A stretch of DNA of 64,000 nt from an uncultured Clostridia bacterium. GTDB taxonomy: Bacteria > Bacillota > Clostridia > Christensenellales > UBA1242. The stretch covers positions 429 to 64,428 of the forward strand of contig CALWPF010000006.1 of NCBI GenBank assembly GCA_944383355.1. Direction: 5' to 3'. The translations under genes were made by a program, and so were the position numbers. The notes beneath the pieces are model-generated. The model saw nothing but the letters and a program-made list of their open reading frames with translations, did no database searches and was not told where the DNA came from. Positions 18,859 to 61,500 of this stretch are shown in pieces (the stretch's first letter is position 1; every line of letters begins with the position of its first letter).

Positions 18859-20079
18859 TTATTTTATAGTTAGTTGTGGGATAAATGTAGCTGTAGCTTC
18901 ATCGGATTTTTGAGTGTAATGTGCTACTATATCCTCAGGGCTATCCTGTATAACATGGATTACATATTCGTCTTGAGGTTGCTTTTCTTTCATCTTGTGC
19001 CACAGTATTGATTTGTCATGTTTATCCAATTTTTCTTGTTTGATTTCTTGGTAAGTTTTCTTTTCCTTTTTTACATTAGGAGATATAGTAGTTGATTTTT
19101 TGTCTGTGCTATTTGAGTTACTGTTATTTTTATCTACTTGCCTCAGCAATAGACATGAATGTTCTTCATTAGAGCAGTGTAATTCAAATTCATTTATTAA
19201 CTCATTAAAACTGTGTATATCTTCTATTGGAGTTTTAATTCTTTGCGTTACAGTTTTTTGAACAGTTTTACGGTGATGAGCTAACATCTTTGTGCCATAT
19301 TCCATACGCTCAACACTACACCCGCTTGCAGTAGGTGTAATCTTGTAATGGTGACACTCTCTCAATACTCTAAAAAATGTATCAATTATCATATCTTTTG
19401 ATAGCATTTCACCATTTTTACCAAAACTATAGTTGATTTCATGTTTTTGGACTCCGCCACGGTGACGGTGTATGGCGAGGTCTTTTATATTTTCTACCTC
19501 AGGGGCATATTCGGGATAACTATGTGCTGCCTTTGCTGAGTAATATGTAGTAGCCTGATTTATTGATATTGGTACTTTACTATCCGGTGTATAGTTTATT
19601 ACAAAATAATAATCTTTATTTAATGCAAAAAATGGTATATCCAAAAATTGTGTATAAATTAGTTTAGTATTGGTGGGTGGGATATATCCACTATGAGCGC
19701 TGTTACGGAATTTTGATGTTTCTCTATTGATGTCCAGTGGCATATCGTAATAAATTTCGTTTGCACAAGTTATAGCAATCTGTATTGATGTTTTGTCTTG
19801 GACATCTTTGCCTATTGATAGTGACAAGTCGCTATCAAACATACCTTCTTTGCATTTTAATTGTATTGGTATGACTAGTGTAGTGTCTTGCTCATCACTG
19901 TACTGCACATCAACGCTTTGCATATCACTTATTTTTGTGAATGCATTACAAAAAATCTTATTTTGTGCCATGTGTGCCATTGCATCTATGAGTAATTGTT
20001 GTTGAGTTTTGTTTAAATGTGGTGAGACTAAGTTTTGTAATGTAGATTGATTTTGGACAAAATTGGATAGAGGCGGCAT
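18859..20079 (-). CDS. Hypothetical protein (406 aa), no family recognised
   Basis: A long clean ORF with GGAGGG upstream on the minus strand. His-rich stretches (HRHRGG, AHHRK) and a Lys/Glu-rich C-terminal third. Confidence 0.6.
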   Translation of the reverse strand: MPPLSNFVQNQSTLQNLVSPHLNKTQQQLLIDAMAHMAQNKIFCNAFTKISDMQSVDVQYSDEQDTTLVIPIQLKCKEGMFDSDLSLSIGKDVQDKTSIQIAITCANEIYYDMPLDINRETSKFRNSAHSGYIPPTNTKLIYTQFLDIPFFALNKDYYFVINYTPDSKVPISINQATTYYSAKAAHSYPEYAPEVENIKDLAIHRHRGGVQKHEINYSFGKNGEMLSKDMIIDTFFRVLRECHHYKITPTASGCSVERMEYGTKMLAHHRKTVQKTVTQRIKTPIEDIHSFNELINEFELHCSNEEHSCLLLRQVDKNNSNSNSTDKKSTTISPNVKKEKKTYQEIKQEKLDKHDKSILWHKMKEKQPQDEYVIHVIQDSPEDIVAHYTQKSDEATATFIPQLTIK

Positions 20080-20214: not shown

Positions 20215-20484
20215 ATGTTTTTGAATGAATTAAGCCAAAAGTTAAGTATGCAAATTGATGATATATTGGGAGGCTTTAGAGTAACCAATGTAAACAATAA
20301 GGCTGTAATAATAGATGCAAAAGCGGTAATTGATATATATAATTCATGCAAAATCGTGTTGTCTGTCAAGCGACATAAGATTTTTGTATATGGCAATAAC
20401 ATGACCATAGTCGATTATGGTGCAGGGCAGACAGTGATAAAGGGGAATATAATTTGCATTAGTGATAGAGAGGTGAATTTGTGA
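20215..20484 (+). CDS. yqfC: Sporulation protein YqfC (YabP/YqfC family)
   Basis: 89 aa with the family-like pattern (..VYGNNMTIVDYG..VIKGNIICI). Its stop overlaps the start of the yqfD homolog (GTGA). Confidence 0.7.
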   Translation: MFLNELSQKLSMQIDDILGGFRVTNVNNKAVIIDAKAVIDIYNSCKIVLSVKRHKIFVYGNNMTIVDYGAGQTVIKGNIICISDREVNL

Positions 20485-21608
20485 AATTTGGTCTAGGGAG
20501 AGCACATATAAAGGTCGAAGGCGTTAACCTAGTAAGGTTATTAAATAATCTCAAAGCTCAAGGTATCGTAATATCAAAAATTATTAGGCAAGAATCCAAT
20601 TGTGTAGAGATGCAAATACCATACGAATACCTACCTCATTTGATTGCTAAATGTAGGGAATTGTGTTATACTACCACTATACTTTCTATCCCTTGGTATG
20701 TTAGATTGTATAGGTGTATATTTTCACATATAGGAATGGTATCTGGTGTTTTTGTGGCGAGTATTGTTATAGCAATATGTGGTCAACTATGTTTGGGTAT
20801 CTCGGTACAATGCAGTGATAAAGAGCTTGAGGATAGTATCCAACAATATTTGAGTGCAGATGCTGTACTATGGCATGCAAAGTCTAATATAGATTGTGTC
20901 AGTATAGAGCAGGAGTTGCTTGATGAGTTTGAGGAAATTAGCCTATTGGATATATCTTTTCGTGGAGTTTATATGATAGTCAATACCACACTTGCTACAC
21001 CACCAATTGATACTGAGGTCGATGAGGGCGGTGCTATTCTAGCAAAGGCTGATGGTGTAGTCACTAGGATACACTTGGTATCTGGCACTGCTGAGGTCAA
21101 GGTCGGTGATGTGGTGACTGAGGGGCAGGTGCTCATATCCAATTACTATATTGATAGGCTGGGTGAGCGTGTTGAGTGCGAGGCTGAGGGGACTGTATAT
21201 GCCACTAAATGGTACTCGGCTACAGTAGACTTTGCTATCAACACTATAGAATATACTCGTACCGGAGAATGCTTGGTAGAGACCAGTTTGAGCTTTTTGG
21301 GTAAAGAGATACCTCTAGGCGTGCCTGTTGATTTACCACAACATTATGATGTTGAGGTAGTTAAACAACCTTTTGGAGAAACCGCATTACCTGTATATGT
21401 AATTTTTACACAATATTATCCTACTACTGCAGTGGAGGTTACTAGAGATTTTGAGTCACAGCGTGAGGCACTGATTTATGAGGCAAAGGAGTTGGCGCTC
21501 TCTCAATGTGACGAGTCTATGGTAGTAGACCAAAAACATACTATTAGCCTAGTAGGCGGAGTGTACTTTGTGACATACTATTTGAGTGTGGATAGACAAA
21601 TTTCTTAG
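20481..21608 (+). CDS. yqfD: Sporulation protein YqfD
   Basis: GTG start. N-terminus HIKVEGVNLVRLLNNLKAQGIVI, a central TM helix, then a beta-rich C-terminal half, as in YqfD. Confidence 0.75.
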   Translation: MKFGLGRAHIKVEGVNLVRLLNNLKAQGIVISKIIRQESNCVEMQIPYEYLPHLIAKCRELCYTTTILSIPWYVRLYRCIFSHIGMVSGVFVASIVIAICGQLCLGISVQCSDKELEDSIQQYLSADAVLWHAKSNIDCVSIEQELLDEFEEISLLDISFRGVYMIVNTTLATPPIDTEVDEGGAILAKADGVVTRIHLVSGTAEVKVGDVVTEGQVLISNYYIDRLGERVECEAEGTVYATKWYSATVDFAINTIEYTRTGECLVETSLSFLGKEIPLGVPVDLPQHYDVEVVKQPFGETALPVYVIFTQYYPTTAVEVTRDFESQREALIYEAKELALSQCDESMVVDQKHTISLVGGVYFVTYYLSVDRQIS

Positions 21609-21634
21609 TTAATCAGGAGAAAAGAGTAATTTTT

Positions 21635-22135
21635 ATGCAAGTATTATTGACAAATAAGACTGATGCAGTATTGCCAAATGCAAAAGTGCTGACAAAAGTG
21701 GCAAAGTTTATATTAAAAGAGCAAGGTCAACCTACCCGTCATATTTCTGTTGGCGTTTTTTATGTAGATGAGGCGGAGATACAAAAGATAAACAAGGAGT
21801 ACCGTAACCTTGACAAACCAACTGATGTAATTTCGTTTCGCTTGTTAAATAATCCAGAATTCAAAAAAATAAACAAAAAGAATTTTGCATTAGATTATGA
21901 CAAGGATAATCATACTATTTATATTGGTGAGATATTTATTTGCGAGAGTGTAGCTAGTGCTCAGGCAAAAGAATGGCAACATAGTCAATATCGTGAGGTA
22001 GTGGAGTTGTTTTGTCATGGAATGTTGCATTTGCTAGGGTATGATCACGAAGAGGAGCAAGATATGCTAGTGATGCGTGAGCATGAGCAAATAATCTGTG
22101 AGCACCTTGATAAAATGTTAAAAAATGTCAAGTAG
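21635..22135 (+). CDS. ybeY: rRNA maturation endoribonuclease YbeY
   Basis: HGMLHLLGYDH zinc motif. 166 aa. Confidence 0.9.
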   Translation: MQVLLTNKTDAVLPNAKVLTKVAKFILKEQGQPTRHISVGVFYVDEAEIQKINKEYRNLDKPTDVISFRLLNNPEFKKINKKNFALDYDKDNHTIYIGEIFICESVASAQAKEWQHSQYREVVELFCHGMLHLLGYDHEEEQDMLVMREHEQIICEHLDKMLKNVK

Positions 22136-22189
22136 TACAATAATCATGGCATTAATCTACAATTTATTTACAAGGGGTAAGTATTGTCT

Positions 22190-22579
22190 ATGGATAAAAG
22201 TGTGGTAGACAAGTTGGTAGAAAAAGCAAAAAAATTTTCTGAGTACGCATACTGTCCGTACTCGGATATACCCATTGGAGCGTGCGTTTTGACACAAAAT
22301 GGTATGCTTTTTGGTGGTTGTAATATAGAAAATGTTTGCCTAAATGGTAGTCTGGGAGCAATAGAGGTGGCAGTGAGCAAGGCTGTTAGCGAGGGGTGTT
22401 ACAATATCATGGCAGTGGCAGTGTATAGCGACAATATGCTACCTTTTCCAACTGGGGCAGAGAGGCAAATTTTGCGTGAGTTTAGCAGTAAGGCACAGGT
22501 TATCATAGCGAATGGCAAGGGGGACTATGAGGAGTTGAGTATGCAAGAATTGTTGCCATTTAACCGTGAAAAAGAATAG
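22190..22579 (+). CDS. Cytidine deaminase homolog lacking the zinc ligands and catalytic Glu (probable pseudoenzyme)
   Basis: Aligns along its full length with homotetrameric Cdd (AYCPYS, GGCNIEN, SKAVSEG, ELLP). It reads GAIE where CAER is expected and PTGAERQ where PCGACRQ is expected. TTG at 22184 is an alternative start. Confidence 0.75.
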   Translation: MDKSVVDKLVEKAKKFSEYAYCPYSDIPIGACVLTQNGMLFGGCNIENVCLNGSLGAIEVAVSKAVSEGCYNIMAVAVYSDNMLPFPTGAERQILREFSSKAQVIIANGKGDYEELSMQELLPFNREKE

Positions 22580-22607
22580 ACTTTTGTATACTAGGGGGGT
22601 AAAAATT

Positions 22608-23498
22608 ATGGCATTTAGGTCGGGCTTTGTAGCTGTTGTTGGCAAGCCTAATGTGGGTAAATCAACTCTAGTCAATGCTTTGCTTGGACATAAAGTGTCT
22701 ATAGTATCTCCAAAGGCACAGACAACCCGTAACAATATAATGGGGGTGCTCAATGGCGATGATTATCAAATTGTTTTTATTGATACACCAGGTATACACA
22801 AGGCAAAAAACAACCTAGACAAGTATATGCAAAAAAGCATTGATACAGCTACTAGTGATATCAATTTAATGCTGTATGTGTTAGATGGATCACGAGATTT
22901 TGATGCTGCTGACTTGAATACTTTGCAAAAATATTGTAATGCTGAGTACCCAGTGATAGCGGTAGTAAACAAAATTGATACAGGTAATTTTGAGAGCATA
23001 TACCCAAGAATAGCAAAATTAAATGATATAAAAGGGCTAAAAGATGTGTATGCAGTATCAGCAAAAGATGGCAAAAATTTGTCCATGTTGCTAGAGGCTA
23101 TTTTGCCTTTTATGACAGATAACATAAAGTACTTTCCTGATGATGAAAGGACAGACAAAGGGATAGAGTTTGTACTAGCAGAGATTATTAGGGAAAAAAC
23201 TCTGTGGCTATTAGATGATGAGATACCTCACGGTATTGGCGTGCGTATTGACCTGGTAGAGGACAAGCCACACACAGCAGTGATACATGCAACAATGTTT
23301 TGTGAAAAAGATTCACACAAAAATATTATTATTGGCAACAAAGGGAGTATGTTGTCTCGTATAGGTACCGAGAGTAGGAATGCAATGCAAAAGGTGCTAA
23401 ATAAGCCTGTATACCTAGATATATTTGTAAAAGTCAAACCAAATTGGCGAGACCGTGAGGGCGTGATGAGTGATTTGGGTTATCATTCTAGTGAGTGA
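22608..23498 (+). CDS. era: GTPase Era
   Basis: GKPNVGKST (G1), DTPG (G3), NKID (G4) and a C-terminal KH domain. ATG at 22608 follows GGGGGG. The track start at 22566 is over-extended. Confidence 0.95.
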   Translation: MAFRSGFVAVVGKPNVGKSTLVNALLGHKVSIVSPKAQTTRNNIMGVLNGDDYQIVFIDTPGIHKAKNNLDKYMQKSIDTATSDINLMLYVLDGSRDFDAADLNTLQKYCNAEYPVIAVVNKIDTGNFESIYPRIAKLNDIKGLKDVYAVSAKDGKNLSMLLEAILPFMTDNIKYFPDDERTDKGIEFVLAEIIREKTLWLLDDEIPHGIGVRIDLVEDKPHTAVIHATMFCEKDSHKNIIIGNKGSMLSRIGTESRNAMQKVLNKPVYLDIFVKVKPNWRDREGVMSDLGYHSSE

Positions 23499-23562: not shown

Positions 23563-23739
23563 ATGAAAAAAGATAAAAAGTTAAAGCAACAATTGTGGCA
23601 ACAAAAGTTATCTAATCTCGCTTGGAAAAATTTTTGCGAGTCAGGTGAGATAGGCGCATATTTGTTTTACAAGGAAGTGAGCAAAGGACAAGACAATGCA
23701 AGAGAGTATTTTGAAAGGGATAGTACTGAGGGCGATTGA
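23563..23739 (+). CDS. yqzL: YqzL-family small protein (58 aa, below the track cut-off)
   Basis: ATG follows GAGGTG. W..F..SGEIGAYLFYKE matches the YqzL signature. It sits between era and recO as in B. subtilis. Its 3' end overlaps recO by 44 nt. Confidence 0.6.
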   Translation: MKKDKKLKQQLWQQKLSNLAWKNFCESGEIGAYLFYKEVSKGQDNAREYFERDSTEGD

Positions 23740-24421
23740 TTGGAGTGAAAAAGATAAAATATTAACCGTATTTACTCTAGAGCAGGGCAAGGTTTCCATA
23801 GCACTTAAGGGGGTGCGTCAGCAAAAATCAAAGTTAAAATTTGCATCGCAACCGTTGTGTTTTGCTGAGTTCAGTGTAGTGGGTAGCGGTGATATTTTGC
23901 GTTGTACCAATGCTATGGAGCTGGGGAGTTTCTTTGATATTACTAATGACTATGATAGGATTGTGTATGCTAGTGCAATGCTTGAGATGATAGATAGCAC
24001 TACATTGGTTTATGAGAGTAATGCTCCGTTGTTTTTGTGCCTAGCCAAGTCTCTCCAAGCACTGTGTGATAATAACATTGCTGGCAACGCTGTGTTGGCT
24101 AAATTTGTTTTATTCTTGCTCTATAATGCGGGATATGGACTCAACCTTGTTCATTGCAAGGTTTGTGGTGCTAAGTATGATGGAGGTGCTAGCCTAGACC
24201 TCAATACAGGTCAATTAAATTGTCTGCTATGCGGAGATAGTGACAACAAATTGCTGTTGAGTCCACAAGTGTTGCAGAGCTTATCATTACTGGATAGGTT
24301 GGATATCGATGAATTGGGTAAATACAAAGTGCCTAGTGGTGTAGTTGAAGAGATATTGCATATATTAATAACTGATTTTAGTTATAGATTCAATAAGAGG
24401 TTAAAAAGTATCAAGTTTTGA
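23696..24421 (+). CDS. recO: DNA repair protein RecO
   Basis: N-terminal OB-fold region (GIVLRAIDWSEKDKILTVFT) and a zinc-finger CKVCG..CLLCG. Confidence 0.9.
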   Translation: MQESILKGIVLRAIDWSEKDKILTVFTLEQGKVSIALKGVRQQKSKLKFASQPLCFAEFSVVGSGDILRCTNAMELGSFFDITNDYDRIVYASAMLEMIDSTTLVYESNAPLFLCLAKSLQALCDNNIAGNAVLAKFVLFLLYNAGYGLNLVHCKVCGAKYDGGASLDLNTGQLNCLLCGDSDNKLLLSPQVLQSLSLLDRLDIDELGKYKVPSGVVEEILHILITDFSYRFNKRLKSIKF

Positions 24422-49476: not shown

Positions 49477-49542
49477 ATGAGGAAAAGTTGGGGGATAATA
49501 TCGTTAGTATTTTGTGCTTGTTTATTGTGTTTTGCTGGCTGT
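49477..49542 (+). other. Lipoprotein signal peptide with a lipobox-like FAGC (Cys22)
   Basis: MRKSWGIISLVFCACLLCFAG|C: a basic N-terminus, a hydrophobic core, then A-G-C. Confidence 0.65.
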
Positions 49543-52500
49543 GGTAATATTTATGCTAATATGAAAATTACTACCAATTGTGATGACAATTTGATGGAGA
49601 TAGTAATCAATACTGATGACCCAGAGAGTTACAGCACATCTTTTGAGGCCACATTGACAGGTTATTCTGCTGGCATGAATACTGGCGTTGATGTGATTTT
49701 TAGCCCTACTGGAGTTGCTACTTACTCGGTTTTGAGCGAGGCCGATGGTGTGAGTAGAATACAGGTGACAGCTATAGCAGACAATCTCAGTACTGCTGGG
49801 GCTACTACCACCATGACCGTGGTTTCAAGAGAAAATAGTAGTATTCGTTCTGACCCTATTACTCTCAATGTTGTTTTGCCAGTAACGGGCATTACTGCTA
49901 GCAGTGCTACACCTAGCCTGATGGTAGGTAGTAGTATGACACTGCAGACAGATAATCTTATCAACTTTATTCCTTCTGCGACAACCCAACGAGATGTTTC
50001 GTATCAAATAGCTCCTGGTTATGAATTGGCTGGAGTATCTGTTGACGGCAATGTTATAACTGCAAATGATACAGCTAGTACAGGTATAGTCAAGATCATT
50101 GCTACGTCGAGTACAATTATGCCTGAGATGACGCAAGAGCAGATAGACGCACTCACCTGTGAGATTAATTTGATGGTATATAACCCTATTACAGGTGATG
50201 ATATTTCACTTGTAGATGTAAATGGCAATGATATAGATGCCTTTACTATGGCTACTGCATCTGATGAGATTAATAGTAGTACATTTAGGATAGAGGTAGA
50301 TACAGGTAATCTTGAGTACAGGGTAAATGCCTCAATTCAAAATGCTAGGATTGCATACGCAGAGCCTAGCGATGATGACCCTAGTAGGTATACCTTAAAT
50401 GCTTTTGAGATAGGTGAGACAAATCTCGATGTGTCCGTCATATTGTATGACCCCGAGACTGGGAGAGATTATTTGAATATTCACCGTTATGTATTTGTCG
50501 AGGTTATACAGATTGCCTACTCAGTGCAATTTACTACTGCTAGTATTACTACGCCAACAGACCAGAGTATAGAGATAAATGTTTTAGAGCAGTCTGCTAC
50601 TACTAGAGGTACTGAGGTGCATGTCAATATTGAGCCAGAGGGGGCTCAAAATAGGCAATATTCTATATCAGTACATGAGATTGATGGTGAAACTGAGAAC
50701 TTGCAGAGTAGATTGCCTAGTATACTCGTATACCATTATGTCAATGGTGTGCGAGAATTGGTTACATTGGAGGAGCAGGCTGGAGATATTAGCGAGGCAC
50801 TGCTCAATAACGATACATCATTCTATGTTTGCTTTACAGGTGATGGTGTAAAAGAGTATTTTACACTGGCTGTCAGTGCCAATTCAACAGACCCTAATAT
50901 TCCAAGTGTTGTAAATTATGTAAAATGTAATATTAGGGCAGGGGTAACCTCTATCTCGGCTGCCGTTAATGGTAACAATGTAGAGGGCGCTATATATATG
51001 GGTTTATTAGATGGACAAAATGAATTGCCATTGACTATAAACTATTCCACAACTGGTGGAGTGTCCGTCGGAACACAGATTTTTAATATCGTATTTGATG
51101 ATGACGGCGATGGTGAATTTGATGATAATGGTTTGGTAACTGCTGAGCGTACTAGTGAATTTAATATATTCACATTGCGAGCGCAAAAAGAGGGTACTAC
51201 TACTATGCGTATTACCTCAAACGAAAATGAAAATGGTATTTATAGAGATTATCTCATTCACATTTTGGTAGAACCTACTGAGTTAAATTTTGATGTCGAT
51301 ACCACAGTAGCAATTAGCCAAGGAGGCAAAATCGCTTCTGCTGAATACAACAGGATAGAGAGTGATGTGGAGGCTGATGACTTTGGACTCAGGAATATGT
51401 ATCTAACACTCAATACCGAGTTGGCACTAGGGCTATTTGCGACCCCTGCCAATAGTACCATTACTGATTTGGTCATTACATCTAGTGATTCACATACGGT
51501 TAGTGTAGATGGCAACAAGATAAGAGCTGTTGGCGTTAATATTACGACACCTACCTATATTACAGCCACATATACATATTGGCAATATCACGAGATTTAT
51601 GGTTGGCAGATGATGGACGGTGTACGAGAGTTTACTGTTTATGTATTTGTACCTATCAAAAACTTTACATGGGCAGGTAGTGGTGAGATAGATACCAACT
51701 TGTTCTTGTATGATTCTACTGCTCTGTCATATGACAGGAGCAGTGCGGGTACCGCTACTGTCACAGCGACAGTGCAGTCTACTGGTACAAACTATGCTAC
51801 ATATCAGACTATACATTGGCAAAATACAGATGGCACCACTTTTTATGATACTGATTATCTGACTATTACTCCTAGATCAGATGGTAGGAGTTTTGATGTA
51901 ACTGCTCGATTAAAAGATGGCGAGACTAGCGCCTCTACTACATTTTATCTAGTGTTGATGGAACCAGGGGCAGTATATACACTGAGTTGTACAGTGCACA
52001 TTACCAAGCCTCAATTGGTTACTAGTATCACCTCGGATACTGGCACGGACGGCATATACCTAGAATATGGTGGACTTAGCCAGCGTGATAACGCTAGTTT
52101 TGCGGTGGAGACCAATCCGTTAAATGCCTATGACTCAAGAGTTGCATACTTTATAGCAAATGCTGAGAATGTTAATGGAGTAATACAAAAGACTGGTAAT
52201 TGGTACTCAGAGAGGGCTACAGCACTTGGGTTAAACATTTCCTTGGCTAATAATGTGGTTAGGGCTCTAGGTAGTGGCTATGCTATCATTAGGGTAGTTC
52301 CATATGATAATATTCATGTCAATTTAGATGCATTTAACCCAGATGAATTAGGCGAGGGCAATACATATTTGGATATAATAGTCACCATAGCTAATGGTGA
52401 TGACAACAATCCATTCCAATTGTACAATGCAGATGATTTGTTGGCACTCAGCCGTACTGCCAATACTATCAGTTTGTCAAAGACTTATGTATTGATGCAG

Positions 52501-55500
52501 ACTATAGATATGACTGGTCGCACTTGGACTCCTATTGGTAGCGGTACCGCTGATGGATTTACTGGTAAATTTGTCAGCAATGGTTACTTTAATAACACAG
52601 ATATTATGTACTCAATTATAGGTTTATCATTGAGTGCTAGTAGTAATGATGATGGTTATTACTCTGGATTATTTGCAAAACTTACTGGTGCAACAGTAGG
52701 CGGTATACAAATACGTGCTAGCCAGGCTAACTTTGACATGACAGGCGCTAGCAGTGGTGTGGCTGGGTATTTTGGCTTGTTAGCGGGTGAGATTGTAAAT
52801 TCTAGTGTCAAAGATGTGAGTGTATCAATGCAAAACAACGTTAGTTTGTTGCAAGTGAGTGCCGGCACTGGTAATAATACTGTTTACTTTGGTGGTTTGG
52901 CTGGATACATAACAGGTGGTGCTAGTGATAGTTTGCAGGATATTAGCGTAGACCTAAATGTCAATGTCGACTCTAGTGACCAAAGTATACTGTATGTTGG
53001 TGGATTGGTTGGTTATCTTGGGCAAACATTGAGTACAACAAAGTCAAGTAGCGTCAATTTGACATTAGCATCAAATGGCACATTTAATAACGCAAATTTG
53101 ACCAATTCAAATATTGGAGGTGTTGCTGGTTACCTTGCTAGTGGCAACCAATTGATAGGTTATTATTCTAGCGGAACTATCACTACACTTGCTCTAGATA
53201 ATGTAGGTGGCTTGGTAGGGTACAATGCTGGTATAATTAATTCTAGCGAAACTTCTATGAGGTTGTATGCGCGCAACAATGTTGGAGGAATTGTTGGATA
53301 CAATATAGGTAATCTAGTAGAATGTGTAGTTGAGAGTTATGATAGTGAGACCTTGCCTGCCGAAAATATTTACGCTGTGCGTGGAGTTAGCAATGTAGGT
53401 GGATTGATAGGATTTAGTGCGGGTGGTAATGTGAGGTATTCTTACTTGTTGAGTTATATCCGTACTACCAACAGGACGATGGCTAATCCTCGATTGCCGA
53501 CTATTGTTGATCAGACAGGTAGCTTTTATGGAGATATCATAGGTAATAGTAATGTAGGTGGATTGATAGGTTACAATAGGAATACCACTGTGACAAATAG
53601 CTTTAACAAAGCTCAGATTAGTATATATAGCGAGACAGGCTCTGGCTTTGGCGGTGGACTATTTGGATATATGGAGGCTATTGAGAGCTTTGAGGTTAGC
53701 AATAGTTTTGCAAATAGTGTAATATTGGCGGGTGCATACAACGAGAGCGCAAACAAAGTTGGCGAAATTGCTGGTAATGTTGTAGCAAACAATACTATTA
53801 ATATGTACAATGTTTACGCTAGAGTGCAGATTGACAGATTTGATGAGAATTTTGAGTACAAATATCTATTACAACAGGCATATGGTAATACTAGTGGATC
53901 CTTGAGCACAAATAATGTTTATTATTATGGTACGACTGGTACAGGCGCTGTTGATTCGTTGGATAAATTCCATAATGATAGTAGCACTGGTGGAGCATTG
54001 ACCAATTTGCCTGCTGGCTCAATCTCAGGGGGCTCATATGGTGATAATGTTTATTGGATAAATATTGCTGACACCATAGGCTACAATGATGATGCACTTA
54101 TTTTGGTAAATAGTGACAAAAATGGTATGCTGTACAAGCAAACCATTCAAGAGATACAGATAGACCAAATAAAGACAGAGGACGCAAGCGCTCAAGATAG
54201 CGTATTGCCTACCTACTTTAGTTTTAGCAATGGATTAGTTATAAATCTTGACAATTTGTGGGATAGTGCTACTCAGTCGTATCGTTCGCTCGCTATAAAT
54301 GATTTACTGAGTCTGGTAGTTGCGCCAATTATTGTCAACGAAGACGGTGTAGAGGACCCTAGTCTATGGCAACTAAATGTCTTGTCTAGTGATGCATCAA
54401 TAATGACAGTTTACAAGCCAAATCGTAGTCTGGAGGGGGCTACACTGACGTTTGCATCTACTGGAGTAGTGGTATTGACCATACAGTCAATGCAAGATTT
54501 GAATGCTCGTGCGAGCGTAGAGATAAATGTTATTGCTGGACTAAACTCATTTGATTTGCAAAATAATGCTGGACAGAGTGTTGCAAATACTATTGTGAAC
54601 GTTAAAAAGACTAATTCTGTTAATTTAACACCAGTAGTTGGGCAAAGTACCAATTTGATTAATGATGTTGCTGTAATGTATAGCATTGATAAAGATTTTG
54701 AACAGTTCTTTAACCTCAATGGTTATGCATGGAGTGATGCTGGAGCAATTAATTTACCAGTTAGGAATACTACACACTCTATTCGTGGAGTAGAGTCTAC
54801 CCTAGAGGATACAATTACTGTGACTGCCACACCTTATGTGACCGTGATATTTGGGGGTTTGCAAACTAGGTTATATCTCAATGGTGAGGGTATTGGCGCT
54901 ACAGGTAGAGTAGCAAAAGATTTGAGGCAAAATTTTGAGGTCAGAGTATACAATGGTCTAACGGCAGCTAATCTGGATACATCTTCTGTAGAATTGTATT
55001 CTAGTGATAGTTATACTCTGGACTTGGATTTTATCAGTGATTTGCCTGAATCTGTTGTCTGTGAGCTTGTAGGTGATGACTACGAAACAATGTTGGCAAA
55101 CGGCTACATATCTACATACAAAGATAGTGACAATAATAGATTCCAGTTTTACTTTGAAATACCAGAGGACGGTGGGTCTATTAGTAATATAGCAGATTCC
55201 AATAGGTATCTAGAGTCAGATTTGGTGTACAATTTTACCATAAATCTAATAGATTCAGAGATTAATGAGACATACCGCTCGTATGATGTGTGCGTTACAT
55301 TTAAACCAACACCAGTTTCTCATATTACTACAAGATTTTATCAAAATGGTGAGAGTGGTATAGAGGCTGATGATGTGCCAAATAATGAGATTACACCAGG
55401 TCGTCGAGCAATAATGATAGTCAATGTTAGTGATTATTTTGCTTATTACGATTATATAGAGGTTAGCAGTACTAGAGACCCTGTTACTGGTGATACAGTG

Positions 55501-58500
55501 AGTCTTACCCAAGTGGTTGACACTGGTAGGAGCGACGGTAACGAGTCTAGGTTCCAGACCATATACGGTGGGTCTCAACAGATAGATGGCAAGTTGATGG
55601 CTATGCCAGTAACGCAACAAACTTTTGACGACCAGGGCAATTTAGTAAGTAGTGTATATCAAGATGGTATTATATATATCTCTGCGATTATTGGTAGTGA
55701 TGTGCCAGAGGGGACAGTATTTACATTGACTCTGCGTGCTATCAAAGAGGGGGCTACCAGTGAGCCTTGTACTGCATTAGTTACATTGACATCTTGTTTT
55801 GCTCCTCGTGTGACCTTGTCTGCAGTTAATAACAATTACGACCAGATTTTGGTAGCAAAGGGTACTGTACTAGAGCTCAATATGTCTGGTATAGTACAAA
55901 ATACAGAGGTAAATATTACAGCTGACTACTATGGTACTGCTGATGACTATGGCAATATTAACGATGAGCAGACTATTTGTAGATTTATAGATAATGGACA
56001 GGGTTATACTAATGTATTTACATATATGACAGGAGAGCGAGAGACAGTACAGACCAATGTTCGTTTTTATGTTGGTATGGCAGCTGCCCCTACTCGAGGA
56101 GTTATTACTCTTACTGTTAGGTTGACGACAATACTTGAGGACAATGTTCGCTCTGAGAGCGTATTCGCTGAATACCGGATATATGTTGTAGACTATTTGG
56201 TAGACAATATCTATATGGAAGGCATTGGTGACAATAATACATTTGTAATCAATCCTACTAGTTATACTATATTCCGTATGGCTTGGGATTTGCGTGAGCA
56301 AGATAGTGATGTATTTGAGACCTATATCAATACTGAGAACAATGTACAATACACAAATAACTTTTCATCATGTAGGCAGACTATCATTGCCAAGGCTGAC
56401 CAAGATTTGCTTTTATTAAATTCAAAGGGTGCTACAGGAATAGGTGACAGTATATGGAGCGTGTATACCAATGGAGCTTATGCATCTATAGGGGCAGGAT
56501 ATTCAGGTAATGGATTTACTCTAGAGCCACAAGAGATAGATGGCAGGACATATTTTTGTGCCAAAGGTATTAGGATAACAACTGGTATCTCTATGAGGGC
56601 GGACTTGTTTACTAAATATGTGTGGGATTCTAATAATACTGTAGGTTGTTGGCAAATGAGCACCAATGAGCAAGATGCTAGAGAGACTTTGGTAATGGCT
56701 GAGCGTGTATATAACTTTACTATGAATGTAGAGAATAGTTCTACTGATGATTCGCCTTATAGTGTGGCTACAGCACAAGATTTGAGAGATATGCAGGCGG
56801 GAGCGGCGTACATGCTGACTGCTGATATAGACTTGTACAACTGGGCGCCTCTAGATACAGCTATACAATCTCTTGACGGTAACGGATACACAATTACTAT
56901 TCATTCCTTTGCAGTGAGTGCTATGTCTGGCTCCACTACTACCAATATCGGTTTGTTTGGTACCTTGCCTCAAGGGACAGTGTTAAAGAATTTAATTATA
57001 GATGCCTCGTATCTAGCGTTTGTTGATGCTCGTAACTTTGCCACTGTAAACTTTGGAATAATCGCAGGTACCAACAACGGTGTTGTCTACAATAGTGATG
57101 TAATTGTTACTGCAAACGAGGCAACATGGTATGCAATGAATGCTGATGCTATCAATACAAATTTATCTTTTGTACCACAATTTGGGCGAGATGTATTCAA
57201 TAGCTGGTTGGGTACTAATGAGGGCGGTATGCAAACAGGAAAAGCTACCACTATAGTATTGACTAGCAGTACTGTGTCAAATAATAGTGTTACCTCATAC
57301 ATAGGTGGTCTAGTAGGATACAATAGCACTACTGGTAGTGTGACAAATTCTAGAGTTGGTAGTCTTGAGAGAGTTGGTTACCTAAATTATAATGCTCAAG
57401 GTGTCCAGGTTACTGGTGAGCAGGGTAGTCAAGGATTGAATATTATGGCAAGTGGCAATGTGGCAGGTTTGGCTGGTTACAATGCTGGTGTGGTATCTGC
57501 TAGTTACTATGCTAATGGTTACATTGTGAATTCACAAAATAACGCACAGAATACTCGTACTGCAGGATTGGTTGCAGAGCAGGTAAGTACAGGTAGGATT
57601 AATACATCTTATGTTGCAGGTGTCAAGACTGCTCAGACCAAAGACGTTTTGCGCTTTACTGATGGTGGTATTATGTCATACGGTACAGTAGGTGGCTTAG
57701 TACACACCAATGCAGGTTTTGTAGAAAATTGTTACACAAATATTCCATTGCTGAGTTCCAATGGAATTGGAGGCTTTGTATACCAAAACAGTGGTGAGAT
57801 TTACAAATCTGTCTCTTTGTCGACAATTCGTGAAAATAGGCGTACTAGTGGTAATTTTGTAGGAATTGATGCAAACATTGATGTACAAAATACTGGTACA
57901 ATATCTCAATGTTACTACTTGTATCAAGATAATGTCATTATGAATTCTGATGAGCCGGCTACTGCGTTGACAGCAGAGGAATTTACTGATGTAGATGGTA
58001 AATATTTGCAAGGTTTTGCATTTGGTATAGATACATATGGTCAAGACGCTGTGGCTAATGTGACTTGGGAATTGACAAGTTATACCGATGGTAACAATAG
58101 TTATGTTATACCAAACCTAGTAGAGGCTGATAATATTACTACCTCATATAGAGGTGAGTTGGCAGGAGCCAGTGCAGATGCATTTACTCGTCCAGCATCT
58201 TGTCAATTGGGTAGTGAGGTAAATCCTATAATTATTAGTAGTGTTGCTGATTTTAATAGGATATTCAATCAAAATGTTGGCTCGGGCAGTAATTATGACA
58301 ACAAATACTATAGAATTGTTAGTGATATAGACTTTGATGGCGGTAGTCCAGCATACTCAATGAGAAGAGAATTCAAGGGGTATATCCAAGGTAATGGTAT
58401 GCGTATTAGTGGCTTGAATGTAGTTTACCAAACATCAACTGGTGATATGGGTAACATTGGATTGTTTGCAATGATTACTGGAGGAGTTGTTGCAAATTTG

Positions 58501-61500
58501 GAGTTGCAACTTGACAATGAGATTAGTGCGGGGCTAACCAACAGGGTAGGTGCATTGGCTGGTACTATTGGTGATGATACCGTGGATAGCAATGGTGAGT
58601 ACGACCTGACTGTGGTGGAAAATATCCGTGTCAGCGGTATGCCAAACACGACTGGGGCCATGGTACAGGGCTTGAATATGGTAGGTGGATTGGCTGGTTT
58701 TGTATGTGGTAGGACTATAATTCAAAATATTGAGTCTACTATATCTGTATATGCTACTTACCAGACCCCTAGCAACGCAAAAATTTCGTATTATGAGGGT
58801 CAAAGTTCCTCTGGTCTGGTTAGCGAAATGTCTTATGCAGGTGGAATAATCGGTGTAGTATCATTGATTGATGGTATCACTGATGTAAATTATGATGAGA
58901 ATCCTACTATAAAGGGACTCACGGTGAGTCAAGGCGTAGATATTTTGGCTGAGACTAGTGGTGGTGTGATAGGTTCATTATCAACTGGAGCTATTACACG
59001 AAGCGTATTTGAGGTAGATGCTGCATACACTCCTCGTATTCGTGCATCAAACTTTGCTGGTGGATTGGTTGGCGAAAATAGAGGCACTATACTGGAGAGT
59101 TGGGTATCTCAAGAGATGAATGCGCAAATAGCTAGTGACCGTAGCATTACTAGTGCTAGCAATGCTCAAGACTATTTAGGCTATACTGGTCTATTCCAAA
59201 ATGATGAGGAAGTTATTGCAATAGGTGGTCTAGTGGGACTAAATAGAGGCGGTACTATTAGGAATAGTTACTCAAGAGAGGCTGTACTATCAGACAATGC
59301 GTTGATTGCAGGTGGTTTAATCGGTGTTGCTGTACCATATTTTGATAGCAGTAGTGCTGATTATGCTTACTTGACAGATTTGGTAATAGATAGGGAGCAG
59401 ATATTTGACTGGCAATTTAATACTCAAGTGACGTACAATAGTGATACAGAGGTTGTTAATGCATACAACTCATACGCTGGTACAATTGCTCAGGCTTATA
59501 CTACCAGTCCTGTATTTGCCACGACTGCGACTGGTGGTGCAATAGGCTTGCTCGCTGGCTCGTTTATCAGTAGTGGAGCAGATTTATCACCAGATATAAT
59601 GGCTATTAATAATTATCCAGAGACTGATCGTTATAGCACAACCACAAACATTACAGATGATAGCAGTTATGTGGGTGGATTGGTAGGTTATATCAATATG
59701 AATCTACAGATGGCAGAGGGAGTATCTGGTGTGCCTACTATAGCAGTATTTGTGAGTGGTGCATCGACTGAGGTAATATATTCCGATGCTAGTATTTATA
59801 TAGCAAATGGTATAGTGGATAATGATATTGGACATATTCAACAGAGTTATGGCGGATATTCTTCATTATCCCAGATCAATACTGTCCTGTCTCTCAACTA
59901 CATAAATGTTGCAACAGATTCATCTATAAATTGTTTTGACGGTCTGATGCAAGTAGGCGATGTGTGGGCTGTAGATATTGAGCGAACAAATACTATATTC
60001 CCAGTACTAGCCTACGGCGAGGAGAGGACTGAGATAGAGATTAGTACTGCTGATGAGTTGTTTGAGGCATTGTTGGGCGGTGCTAGTGCGTCATACTACA
60101 AGGTAGTAAGAGATATTGTAATTGATGATGTCACATGGTATAGATATGTAGGTACAAAAGGCACTTTGGCTGGTAGTACTGATACCTATATCAATGGGCA
60201 GTTGTACGGTGCTGTGCCTGATGGAGAGGACACTCGCTCTGCGACAATAACATTGCAAATTTCGCAAACCAATGGTAACTTGGATAGATTCAACTCATTA
60301 TTTGGCTATACTAGAAACTTTACAGTAATGGATATGGATTTTGTCTTTAAATTTGTAGATGGTAATACTTACAACAATTATACAGCTACAGACAAGGCGA
60401 ACTTTGCATTATTAGTTGCTAGTGGTACCAATACAACATTTAGGAATATTAGTATCACTAGTCGAGACCAAGATGATAATGTAGCACCTCTCAATATTAC
60501 ATTAAATAATGTTACTAATTATGGTACTTTTGTTGCAGTAGGCGAGAGTTGCTCATTTAACAAAGTTACTACCAATGTAGCATTGACGGTAAATAATACG
60601 ACAGTATCAGATGAGGCAAGCATAGGTGGCTTGTTTGGAAGTGTAGCGAATAGTGTGAGAGTCGCTGGTGCAGTCGAGGTAGAGGTAGACTTTGATACCA
60701 ACTCAAGCGCTGGCGTGATAAATGTTGGTGCAATAGGTGGATACGCTAGAGATGCTTTCTCAGTTGAGTTGATTAGTACTGGTCTAGATAATGGTAACAT
60801 TTGGGGTGATATTGCAGTAACTGCTGGTAATACCGCATATGTAGGAGGTATGATTGGTAAAAATGGAGGTAATGGATATAGCAAGATATCTGCTGTGGTA
60901 TCCAATGCCAACATAGATGTTACACTCAACTCAGGTGTTAGCGAGGCATACGCTGGTGGACTAATGGGATACATGCTAGACACTAATGCTAGCGATAGTG
61001 CTAACTATGGTAGCATATCTCTATCAAAGAATGCAGACAGTGGAGTATTTTATGTCGGTGGTATTTCTGGTAGGATAGAGAATACTGGTACTCTACTAAC
61101 TCTAGTAAATCTCATCAATGGTAGATTGGTGAGCGGTATGACAAACTATGGAGATATAACTGTAGATATCGGTACCGGAGTTGTCTATGCAGGTGGTATA
61201 TTTGGCCAAGCAAAATATATAATGAATACAACACCATCAGGTACTACTAGGAATGTATTTACTGGACTTGCATCGATGGGTGATATTAATGTTGACAGCC
61301 AAGGTACTGTTTATGCAGGTGGTTTATTTGGTTATCTAGCACAGGCGTTTGGCAGTACTGAAGTTTGTAATAATACCTGCCTACGAGTAGCATCTAGCGT
61401 TAGTCTGTCTAATATAGCTGTACAAAATGCTACTACAATGTATGTAGGTGGTTTGGCTGGTTACAATGGAATGGCTATCTATAGCAGTTTAGCCAATGCA

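What the first reader, a model, noticed from the sequence alone, without database searches (positions are those of the whole stretch)
22190..22579. Cytidine deaminase homolog in its conserved locus that has lost all three zinc ligands and the catalytic glutamate
The ORF between ybeY and era aligns end to end with the homotetrameric cytidine deaminase of Bacillus subtilis as I recall that sequence.
- Conserved blocks: AY.PYS, G.CNIEN, KAVSEG, ELLP.
- Where Cdd has C-A-E-R (Zn ligand Cys53, catalytic Glu55), this protein has G-A-I-E (codons 22355-22366).
- Where Cdd has P-C-G-A-C-R-Q (Zn ligands Cys86 and Cys89), it has P-T-G-A-E-R-Q (codons 22448-22468).
The frame is intact and the gene sits in an operon-like context. 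It therefore looks like a retained pseudoenzyme, or a protein with a new non-deaminase role, rather than a decaying pseudogene.
Basis: partly seen in the sequence, partly recalled or inferred. Interest (0 to 1): 0.6.

Follow-up and report, generated by a model that had tools for sequence, protein, structure and literature searches.

The report
Dead cytidine deaminase kept beside YbeY
A gut Clostridia bacterium keeps, under very strong selection, a copy of the enzyme cytidine deaminase that has lost every residue needed for catalysis, always next to the ribosome-maturation gene ybeY; this suggests the protein fold has a second, non-enzymatic job that has not been described.

Summary
ORF 22190-22579 (129 aa) is an end-to-end homolog of homotetrameric cytidine deaminase (Cdd). 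Its AlphaFold model has pLDDT 91.5 and TM 0.9 to mouse and human CDA. All three zinc ligands and the catalytic Glu are replaced: C-A-E-R becomes G-A-I-E, and P-C-G-A-C becomes P-T-G-A-E.

It is not decaying. It belongs to a monophyletic clade of about 36 sequence clusters from uncultured Clostridia, and all of them lack the catalytic set. Across strains in four chicken-gut metagenomes the gene shows 12 synonymous and 0 non-synonymous changes (era 11/8). Between species it changes less than ybeY, era or recO.

It is the positional ortholog of cdd in the ybeY-(dgkA)-cdd-era operon. In 13 of 13 family loci it directly follows ybeY, often with overlapping stop and start codons, even where era has moved away.

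In other Clostridia, YbeY and a live Cdd are fused into one protein (over 100 clusters).

Best reading (about 0.45): a non-catalytic Cdd-fold partner of YbeY. Rivals are a ligand sensor, a new enzyme, or a regulator of a second Cdd.

No description was found in the searched literature.

The parts
22190..22579 (+). Zn-less, Glu-less cytidine-deaminase-fold gene (129 aa, P0001), positional ortholog of cdd
   Evidence: - ORF and translation.
- Family and PDB matches.
- AF2 model pLDDT 91.5, pTM 0.84.
- Foldseek TM 0.87-0.91 to CDA structures.
- 12 synonymous / 0 non-synonymous strain variants.
22355..22366 (+). G56-A57-I58-E59, replacing C-A-E-R. The first zinc ligand, the catalytic Glu and the thiolate-neutralising Arg are lost. 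E59 is conserved in 83% of the clade.
22448..22468 (+). P87-T88-G89-A90-E91-R92-Q93, replacing P-C-G-A-C-R-Q. The second and third zinc ligands are lost. E91 is present in 67% of the clade.
22319..22333 (+). C44-N45-I46-E47-N48. It retains the Asn and Glu that contact the ribose in canonical Cdd (N42/E44 of B. subtilis). N45 is kept in 94% and E47 in 100% of the dead clade.
   Evidence: The role of N42/E44 comes from established knowledge of CDA structures and was not tested here.
22173..22177 (+). Shine-Dalgarno-like AGGGG, 12 nt upstream of ATG 22190
   Evidence: Read directly from the sequence.
21635..22135 (+). ybeY (166 aa, H-x3-H-x5-H motif intact), immediately upstream. It is adjacent to the dead cdd in all 13 family loci.
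22608..23498 (+). era (GTPase plus KH domain). The likely start is ATG 22608, after a GGGGGG Shine-Dalgarno at 22594-22599. An in-frame GTG lies upstream at 22566.
   Evidence: No terminator-like site lies between ybeY, the dead cdd and era on the + strand.
20215..21608 (+). yqfC/yabP-like (20215-20484) and yqfD (20481-21608) sporulation genes, at the upstream end of the conserved block
23563..24421 (+). yqzL-like small ORF (23563-23739) and recO (23696-24421), at the downstream end of the conserved block

Best explanation
The gene descends from the cdd gene that sits before era in the ybeY-(dgkA)-cdd-era-recO operon of Bacillota.

**Shown**
- It keeps the complete tetrameric-CDA fold.
- It has lost the three zinc ligands, the catalytic Glu, the Arg that neutralises the zinc thiolates, and the aromatic residues that clamp the pyrimidine ring (F24, Y48', F125'). 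It therefore cannot deaminate cytidine.
- It is nevertheless under purifying selection at least as strong as that on era and ybeY.

**Inferred**
- The selected function is non-catalytic and tied to YbeY, the 16S rRNA 3'-end endoribonuclease.
- The protein is made in fixed proportion with YbeY through translational coupling.
- It serves as an oligomeric partner or adaptor, probably a tetramer, for YbeY.
- It may still hold a ribose-containing ligand through the retained Asn45/Glu47. A carboxylate-rich network (E59 with E91, or with D88 or E56 in relatives) fills the former zinc site.
- In other Clostridia the same association is made permanent by fusing YbeY to a still-active Cdd. This suggests that the canonical enzyme has the same second job.
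For: **Loss of the catalytic set**
- Searches show the substitutions.
- The AF2 model is confident and matches CDA structures.

**Selection**
- Strain variants: CDL 12 syn / 0 non-syn, era 11/8, ybeY 5/1.
- Between species (window vs L089), dN is 0.13 for CDL, 0.18 for ybeY, 0.22 for era, 0.30 for recO and 0.44 for yqfD, with dS saturated.
- Lineages with a live Cdd have Cdd identity close to Era identity. In the dead clade the identity is equal to or above that of Era.

**Positional orthology**
- A live cdd sits directly before era in many Bacillota, Thermotogota and Atribacterota loci.

**Link to YbeY**
- ybeY is directly upstream in all 13 family loci.
- Stop and start codons abut or overlap in L007, L091, L093, L094 and L012.
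- The ybeY adjacency is kept where era is gone, in L011 and L094.

**Fusion evidence**
- 8 of 10 long hits are YbeY+CDA proteins.
- More than 100 fusion clusters were found, all with an intact C-E-C-C signature.
- The fusions occur in many independent assemblies, inside the phoH-pgpH-[ybeY::cdd]-era operon.
- They fall in several separate places of the tree.
- The AF2 model of a fusion has pLDDT 91.7 and pTM 0.82, higher than expected for two domains that tumble freely.
Against: - No physical interaction was tested.
- Every YbeY-Cdd fusion found has a live deaminase domain. No YbeY::dead-CDA fusion turned up, even with a concatenated query. The fusion may therefore reflect a link that needs catalysis.
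- Adjacency to ybeY could simply be inherited operon order after loss of dgkA.
- In S. aureus, Cdd did not bind Era in two-hybrid or split-luciferase assays. YbeY-Cdd was not reported as tested (PMC6738653).
- The dead clade is acidic (median pI 4.8), so direct RNA binding is unlikely.
- pTM alone, without the PAE matrix, is weak evidence for a fixed interface.
Confidence: 0.45

Rival explanations
1. It is a stand-alone ligand-binding pseudoenzyme. The remodelled pocket still binds a ribonucleoside-like or ribose-containing small molecule, using Asn45/Glu47 and the new carboxylates. The protein acts as a sensor, buffer or carrier independent of YbeY. Its place in the operon is only historical.
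For: - N45 and E47 are kept in 94-100% of the dead clade, while the truly inert second domains of two-domain CDAs often lose the Asn.
- The neighbouring Zn-less clade is fused to periplasmic solute-binding proteins and keeps the aromatic cage, as expected for a binding module.
Against: - The base-stacking residues F24, Y48' and F125' are all lost in the stand-alone clade, so the canonical binding mode is gone.
- This reading does not explain the invariant, often overlapping ybeY junction, or the YbeY-Cdd fusions.
Confidence: 0.2
2. It is a neo-enzyme. The pair of carboxylates that replaces the zinc site (E59 with E91, D88 or E56) supports a different chemistry on a ribosyl substrate. Examples would be a hard-metal-dependent hydrolysis, or a glycosidase- or transferase-type reaction.
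For: - An acidic residue at position 59 is present in nearly all members.
- A second acidic residue sits at one of the three former ligand positions in most subclades.
- Selection is very strict.
Against: - The second carboxylate moves between positions 56, 88 and 91, and is absent in the P0021/P0023 subclade. That is unusual for a catalytic residue.
- E91 is only 67% conserved.
- No precedent is known to me for such chemistry in the CDA fold.
Confidence: 0.12
3. It is a non-catalytic subunit that co-assembles with an active Cdd encoded elsewhere in the genome. The result would be a heterotetramer like the pseudo-tetramer of E. coli-type CDA, and the dead subunit would tune or inhibit the enzyme.
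For: - T-CDA active sites are built across subunits, and E. coli-type CDA carries a 'broken' second domain (established knowledge; PF08211 hit).
- Some Clostridia have cdd away from era (L024, L031, L035), so a second copy is conceivable.
- An unchecked first-reader note from another genome describes a live and a dead cdd in tandem.
Against: - The residues that a neighbouring subunit donates to the partner's site (Y48, F125) are lost.
- No second Cdd homolog lies in the 64-kb window or in the 10-kb flanks of related loci.
- Whole-genome search was impossible.
Confidence: 0.1
4. It is a pseudogene in slow decay, or a functionless remnant kept only because it lies inside an essential operon.
For: All catalytic residues are lost.
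Against: - The frame is intact in about 36 clusters down to about 45% identity.
- All 12 strain variants are synonymous third-position changes.
- dN is lower than in the essential neighbours.
- Many non-catalytic positions are more than 90% conserved.
Confidence: 0.02
5. It is still an active cytidine deaminase that uses other residues as zinc ligands, for example the conserved Cys22, Cys32 and Cys44.
For: - C22, C32 and C44 are conserved in the clade at 89%, 72% and 100%.
- NCBIfam NF004064 scores above its cutoff (87.6 vs 74), so pipelines name the protein 'cytidine deaminase' (P0004).
Against: - There is no Glu at the proton-shuttle position and no His anywhere in the protein.
- C22 and C44 equivalents also occur in human CDA, where they are not ligands (alignment).
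- TIGR01354 scores below its cutoff (91.8 vs 113.65).
- The pyrimidine-stacking residues are lost.
Confidence: 0.02

Closest known systems
Homotetrameric cytidine deaminase Cdd (B. subtilis 1JTK, human 1MQ0, mouse 1ZAB; TIGR01354, EC 3.5.4.5)
   Same: - Same length, fold and secondary-structure order.
- 37-42% identity; TM 0.87-0.91.
- Same operon slot before era.
- Retained AYxPYS, GCNIEN, KAVSEG, RQ and ELLP blocks.
   Different: - All three zinc ligands are replaced, as are the catalytic Glu, the Arg beside it and the three aromatic base contacts.
- It scores below the TIGR01354 cutoff.
C-terminal 'broken active site' domain of two-domain (E. coli-type, plant) cytidine deaminases (PF08211)
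   Same: It is a CDA-fold unit without zinc ligands that is kept for a non-catalytic role. PF08211 is the slightly better Pfam hit (36 bits).
   Different: - Those domains are covalently joined to an active domain and cluster elsewhere in the tree.
- This protein is a free-standing single domain derived from the tetrameric branch.
YbeY-Cdd fusion proteins of Clostridia (e.g. P0088, P0182, P0216; JGI name 'homotetrameric cytidine deaminase/rRNA maturation RNase YbeY')
   Same: Same gene order (YbeY then CDA), same operon and same bacterial class. They point to a YbeY-Cdd association.
   Different: In the fusions the deaminase domain is intact (115 of 115) and covalently linked. Here the two proteins are separate and the CDA is dead.
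Zn-less CDA-like domain fused to SBP_bac_3 solute-binding proteins (Methanothrix, Syntrophaceae, Armatimonadota; L013, L014, L050, L070, L082)
   Same: - It shares loss of the zinc ligands and the Glu, and a P-T-x-x-E-R-Q motif.
- It is the neighbour of the stand-alone clade in the tree (support 86-93).
   Different: - It is secreted and fused.
- It keeps the aromatic cage (Y24, Y48, F125).
- It has Lys instead of Glu at position 59.
Catalytically dead deaminase subunits that work as partners (ADAT3/Tad3 with ADAT2; N-terminal domains of double-domain APOBEC3s)
   Same: This is a resemblance in working principle only: a deaminase fold retained as a non-catalytic partner. It rests on established knowledge and was not tested here.
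   Different: - Those belong to a different division of the superfamily (helix-4 division, per PMC3239186).
- They partner with an active paralog and keep the zinc site.

Membership tests
Homotetrameric cytidine deaminase (TIGR01354 / EC 3.5.4.5) | End-to-end sequence and fold homology to T-CDA | tested here: met
   - phmmer E 2.3e-25 to 1MQ0 over residues 6-124.
- Foldseek TM 0.87-0.91.
Homotetrameric cytidine deaminase (TIGR01354 / EC 3.5.4.5) | Zinc ligands: C/H in the C/H-A-E motif and both Cys of P-C-x-x-C | tested here: not met
   G56, T88 and E91 occupy these positions. The whole clade lacks the ligands.
Homotetrameric cytidine deaminase (TIGR01354 / EC 3.5.4.5) | Catalytic proton-shuttle Glu (E55 in B. 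subtilis) | tested here: not met
   I58 sits here; relatives have V, I, M or G.
Homotetrameric cytidine deaminase (TIGR01354 / EC 3.5.4.5) | Pyrimidine-ring contacts F24, Y48' and F125' | tested here: not met
   F24 becomes I/V/T, Y48 becomes L, and F125 becomes R or a variable residue.
Homotetrameric cytidine deaminase (TIGR01354 / EC 3.5.4.5) | Ribose contacts N42 and E44 | tested here: met
   N45 is kept in 94% and E47 in 100% of the clade.
Homotetrameric cytidine deaminase (TIGR01354 / EC 3.5.4.5) | Score at or above the curated equivalog cutoff | tested here: inconclusive
   - TIGR01354: 91.8, below 113.65.
- NF009076: 80.9, below 216.
- NF004064: 87.6, above 74.
The last result explains the public 'cytidine deaminase' label.
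Homotetrameric cytidine deaminase (TIGR01354 / EC 3.5.4.5) | Homotetramer; zinc content; deaminase activity | not testable with these tools
   This needs the protein itself or a multimer prediction with coordinates.
Positional ortholog of cdd in the ybeY-(dgkA)-cdd-era operon | Located directly upstream of era and downstream of ybeY, on the same strand | tested here: met
   - Window.
- Family loci.
- Live cdd in the same slot in other Bacillota, Thermotogota and Atribacterota.
Two-domain (E. coli-type) CDA, C-terminal inactive domain (PF08211) | Covalently follows an active N-terminal CDA domain | tested here: not met
   It is a single-domain 129-aa protein. Inactive domains of two-domain proteins cluster elsewhere.
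Pseudoenzyme (general definition) | Homolog of an enzyme that lacks the catalytic residues but is maintained by purifying selection | tested here: met
YbeY-associated Cdd module (proposed here) | Physical complex with YbeY | not testable with these tools
   The evidence is only indirect:
- adjacency in 13 of 13 loci;
- overlapping stop and start codons;
- natural fusions;
- fusion model pTM 0.82.

The most novel reading that the evidence does not exclude
The Cdd fold is a genuine, so far unrecognised subunit or adaptor of the YbeY 16S-rRNA-maturation machinery in Bacillota. Canonical Cdd would moonlight in this role, which would explain why cdd has always sat in the ybeY/era operon and why YbeY-Cdd fusions are common in Clostridia. 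The dead clade would be the natural separation-of-function mutant, in which only the ribosome-related role survives.
Probability: 0.25. Interest if true: 0.75.

Novelty: new variant of a known kind. Interest (0 to 1): 0.6.

Why it matters
1. Public pipelines label these proteins 'cytidine deaminase' (NF004064 scores above its cutoff). Metabolic reconstructions of these gut and rumen Clostridia therefore wrongly credit them with pyrimidine salvage.
2. A catalytically dead Cdd that evolves more slowly than Era is a natural experiment. It shows that the fold has a selectable function other than deamination.
3. Together with the abundant and apparently unstudied YbeY-Cdd fusion proteins, this gives a testable answer to an old puzzle: why cdd is embedded in the ybeY-era ribosome-biogenesis operon of Firmicutes.
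4. The neighbouring Zn-less clade fused to solute-binding proteins shows that the dead CDA fold has been reused as a module more than once.

Tried and rejected
- **Whole-genome search for a second cdd.** Only the window and flanks of up to 10 kb of related loci could be checked, and they hold none.
- **Classical dN/dS.** dS is saturated (pS 0.65-0.91) in every interspecies pair. I used relative dN and within-species variants instead.
- **PF26947 'CDL' tag.** I first took it for a marker of the dead family. It also tags live YbeY-Cdd fusions and animal CDAs, so I dropped it.
- **High-scoring two-domain hits.** I considered that these hits in the representative search meant kinship with broken C-terminal domains. 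Their scores are sums over two domains, and they cluster elsewhere.
- **YbeY::dead-CDA fusions.** A concatenated query found none.
- **Literature.** Searches for a described dead bacterial Cdd or a YbeY-Cdd fusion found nothing relevant. Iyer et al. 2011 list inactive CDA domains only in eukaryotic or two-domain proteins.
- **RNA-binding role.** This is unlikely because the clade is acidic.
- **Window context.** There are no Rfam hits in the window. None of the 26 window ORFs scanned with Pfam is a pyrimidine-salvage gene, and tblastn finds no second Cdd homolog in the 64 kb.
- **Model coordinates.** These are not exported, so distances among E59, E91 and T88, or among C22, C32 and C44, could not be measured.

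Full report
**1. The observation**

The ORF runs from ATG 22190 to TAG 22579 on the + strand and encodes 129 aa. An AGGGG Shine-Dalgarno lies 12 nt upstream. Orthologs start with the same MDK/MEK, so the TTG at 22184 is not the start.

Sequence and fold evidence:
- Pfam gives PF00383 (33.9 bits) and PF08211 (36 bits).
- NCBIfam gives the tetrameric cytidine deaminase equivalogs. TIGR01354 scores 91.8 bits, below its 113.65 cutoff. NF004064 scores 87.6 bits, above its cutoff of 74.
- phmmer against PDB aligns residues 6-124 without register problems to human CDA (1MQ0, E 2.3e-25), mouse CDA (1ZAB) and B. subtilis Cdd (1JTK/1UX0/1UX1).
- In these alignments C-A-E-R is G56-A57-I58-E59 (22355-22366), and P-C-G-A-C-R-Q is P87-T88-G89-A90-E91-R92-Q93 (22448-22468).
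- The protein has no histidine at all.
- An AlphaFold2 model built on 19 family sequences is confident (pLDDT 91.5, pTM 0.84). It superposes on CDA crystal structures with TM 0.87-0.91 and rmsd 1.3-1.4 Å.

The flanking genes are ybeY and era. Further out lie yqfC, yqfD, yqzL, recO and dnaG.

**2. It is a family, not an accident**

The 90%-clustered protein database holds 20 clusters at 47-99% identity. All of them lack the catalytic set. A profile search of 1.84 billion representatives adds more divergent members (P0022, P0023, P0026-30, P0033, P0035-39).

I classified 294 CDA-type domains at the four catalytic positions. The signature C/H-E-C-C appears in 203. The remainder fall into a few groups.

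In trees the stand-alone Zn-less proteins form one clade:
- 36 rows, FastTree support 99.
- 28 rows, IQ-TREE SH-aLRT 94.

Named members come from uncultured Clostridia and Christensenellaceae MAGs (L009-L012). The window's own organism recurs in many chicken-gut metagenomes.

**3. It is under strong purifying selection**

Interspecies synonymous sites are saturated (pS 0.65-0.91), so a ratio cannot be computed. dN for this gene is, however, the lowest or nearly the lowest of the operon. For window vs L089 the values are:

| gene | dN |
|---|---|
| dead cdd | 0.13 |
| ybeY | 0.18 |
| era | 0.22 |
| recO | 0.30 |
| yqfD | 0.44 |

The same pattern holds in other pairs.

I laid contigs from four independent metagenome runs on the region. 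Strain differences are:

| gene | synonymous | non-synonymous |
|---|---|---|
| dead cdd | 12 (11 sites, all third positions) | 0 |
| era | 11 | 8 |
| ybeY | 5 | 1 |

If about three quarters of random changes are non-synonymous, twelve synonymous in a row has a chance of the order of 1e-7. That is my own arithmetic, and the variants are partly linked.

In lineages with a live Cdd, Cdd is about as conserved as Era. In the dead clade it is as conserved or more so. Simple decay is excluded.

**4. What is kept and what is lost**

Kept in both live and dead proteins:
- the structural core: AY-PYS, G30, G43, A57, A61, K64-A65, S67-E68-G69, P87, G89, R92-Q93, E97-F98, P123;
- Asn45 and Glu47, which correspond to N42 and E44 that hold the ribose hydroxyls in canonical enzymes (established knowledge).

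Lost in the dead clade:
- C53, E55, C86 and C89;
- R56, now Glu in 83% of members;
- F24, Y48 and F125, which form the pyrimidine cage, partly donated by neighbouring subunits.

Position 59 is acidic in nearly all members. A second acidic residue sits at one of the three former ligand positions (91, 88 or 56) in most subclades. I read this as a carboxylate or polar network, or possibly a hard-cation site, that replaces the Cys3-Zn cluster.

**5. Genomic context**

A live cdd lies directly before era, usually with dgkA between ybeY and cdd, in many Bacillota and also in Thermotogota and Atribacterota. The dead gene is therefore the positional ortholog of cdd.

In the dead clade dgkA is absent from the block, and ybeY directly precedes the gene in all 13 distinct loci examined: window, L001, L004, L006, L007, L009, L010, L011, L012, L089, L091, L093 and L094.

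The junction is tight:
- 4-nt overlap in L007;
- 1-nt overlap in L093;
- 14-nt overlap in L094;
- no gap in L091.

In L011 and L094 era is no longer downstream, but ybeY is still adjacent. No terminator-like site separates ybeY, the dead cdd and era in the window.

**6. An unexpected lead: YbeY-Cdd fusions**

Among the long hits of the representative search, 8 of 10 are YbeY (N-terminal) plus CDA (C-terminal) proteins.

Searching with one of them returned more than 100 fusion clusters of 290-310 aa from Lachnospira, Eubacteriales, Succiniclasticum and other Clostridia MAGs. JGI names one 'homotetrameric cytidine deaminase/rRNA maturation RNase YbeY'.

Properties of the fusions:
- All 115 examined have an intact C-E-C-C signature.
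- The gene occurs in many independent assemblies within yqfD-phoH-pgpH-[ybeY::cdd]-era.
- Fusion CDA domains fall in several places in the tree.
- An AF2 model of one fusion has pLDDT 91.7 and pTM 0.82, with only the 12-residue linker uncertain. This suggests a fixed interdomain arrangement.

I found no paper on this fusion. No fusion with a dead CDA domain was found.

**7. Interpretation**

Shown:
- the protein cannot be a cytidine deaminase;
- it is a selected, folded protein;
- it descends from the operon's cdd;
- it is invariably coupled to ybeY.

Inferred: the retained function is a non-catalytic one performed together with YbeY. I rate this at about 0.45.

The rivals, detailed in their own sections, are:
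- a ligand-binding sensor independent of YbeY (0.2);
- a new carboxylate-based enzyme (0.12);
- a regulatory subunit of a heterotetramer with a second, active Cdd (0.1);
- decay (0.02);
- residual deaminase activity (0.02).

The heterotetramer rival could not be tested properly. Only the window and short flanks could be searched, and they hold no second cdd.

**8. Comparison with what is known**

Iyer et al. 2011 (PMC3239186) list inactive CDD/CDA-type domains only in eukaryotic or two-domain proteins. The bacterial stand-alone dead clade is not mentioned there.

In S. aureus, Cdd did not bind Era, and transposons were not recovered in cdd. YbeY-Cdd was not reported as tested (PMC6738653).

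Other first-reader notes in this scan independently flagged the same kind of gene in other genomes. These are leads, not evidence.

I file the finding as a new variant of a known kind: a pseudoenzyme derived from tetrameric Cdd. It fails the defining catalytic features of the family and should not be annotated as cytidine deaminase.

Noticed in passing
L050:3176-4369, L070:3221-4378, L082:3251-4393, L014:3173-4378, L013:943-1545 (also P0063, P0101, P0120, P0383): Secreted proteins of Methanothrix/Methanotrichaceae, Armatimonadota and Syntrophaceae join a family-3 solute-binding domain (SBP_bac_3) to a C-terminal Zn-less CDA-like domain (S-A-L-K-V-A ... A-P-T-G-D-E-R-Q). This domain keeps the aromatic nucleoside cage. 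It is the tree neighbour of the stand-alone dead clade.
   Followed up: partly
P0088, P0182, P0216 and over 100 other clusters; loci L096:5001-5915, L098:5001-5891: YbeY-Cdd fusion proteins (about 295-306 aa, live deaminase domain) are abundant in Clostridia and sit in the phoH-pgpH-ybeY::cdd-era operon. I found no paper describing them.
   Followed up: partly
P0356 (442 aa), P0361 (444 aa): YbeY-Era fusion proteins exist in Clostridiales MAGs (YbeY plus GTPase plus KH domains in one chain). This fits the known YbeY-Era partnership.
   Followed up: no
P0045 (166 aa), P0085: A separate small clade of Zn-less CDA-like proteins carries an N-terminal signal-peptide-like segment (T/G-A-A/E-E ... 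P-T-G-P-D-R-Q). It nests among live Oscillospiraceae Cdd sequences, which suggests an independent loss.
   Followed up: no
window 20481-22135: Compared with the B. subtilis yqf region and with L098, the window's block lacks phoH/ybeZ, pgpH (7TM-HD) and dgkA between yqfD, ybeY and the cdd slot. ybeY follows yqfD directly.
   Followed up: partly
window 49477-64000 (+): A giant ORF of more than 4,800 aa runs off the end of the window. Related loci (L001, L002) also carry 4,000-4,900-aa genes nearby (one with a faint Flg_new_2 hit). It is probably a huge surface protein.
   Followed up: no
window 18859-20079 (-): A 406-aa ORF lies divergent from the yqfC-yqfD-ybeY block and has no Pfam hit at E<=0.01. 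An ORF of similar size without Pfam hits occupies the same place in L089 and L091.
   Followed up: no
window 22594-22599: One metagenome strain (run X6) has a 1-nt deletion in the G6 run that forms the era Shine-Dalgarno. The site is intergenic and has no effect on reading frames.
   Followed up: no
window 1-64000: No Rfam family reaches its gathering score anywhere in the 64 kb, so no tRNA, rRNA or riboswitch is detected.
   Followed up: no
L094:3137-3640: In this divergent family locus a TadA-like deaminase gene (PF00383 / MafB19-deam hits, 167 aa) lies directly upstream of ybeY and the dead cdd, and era is absent downstream.
   Followed up: no
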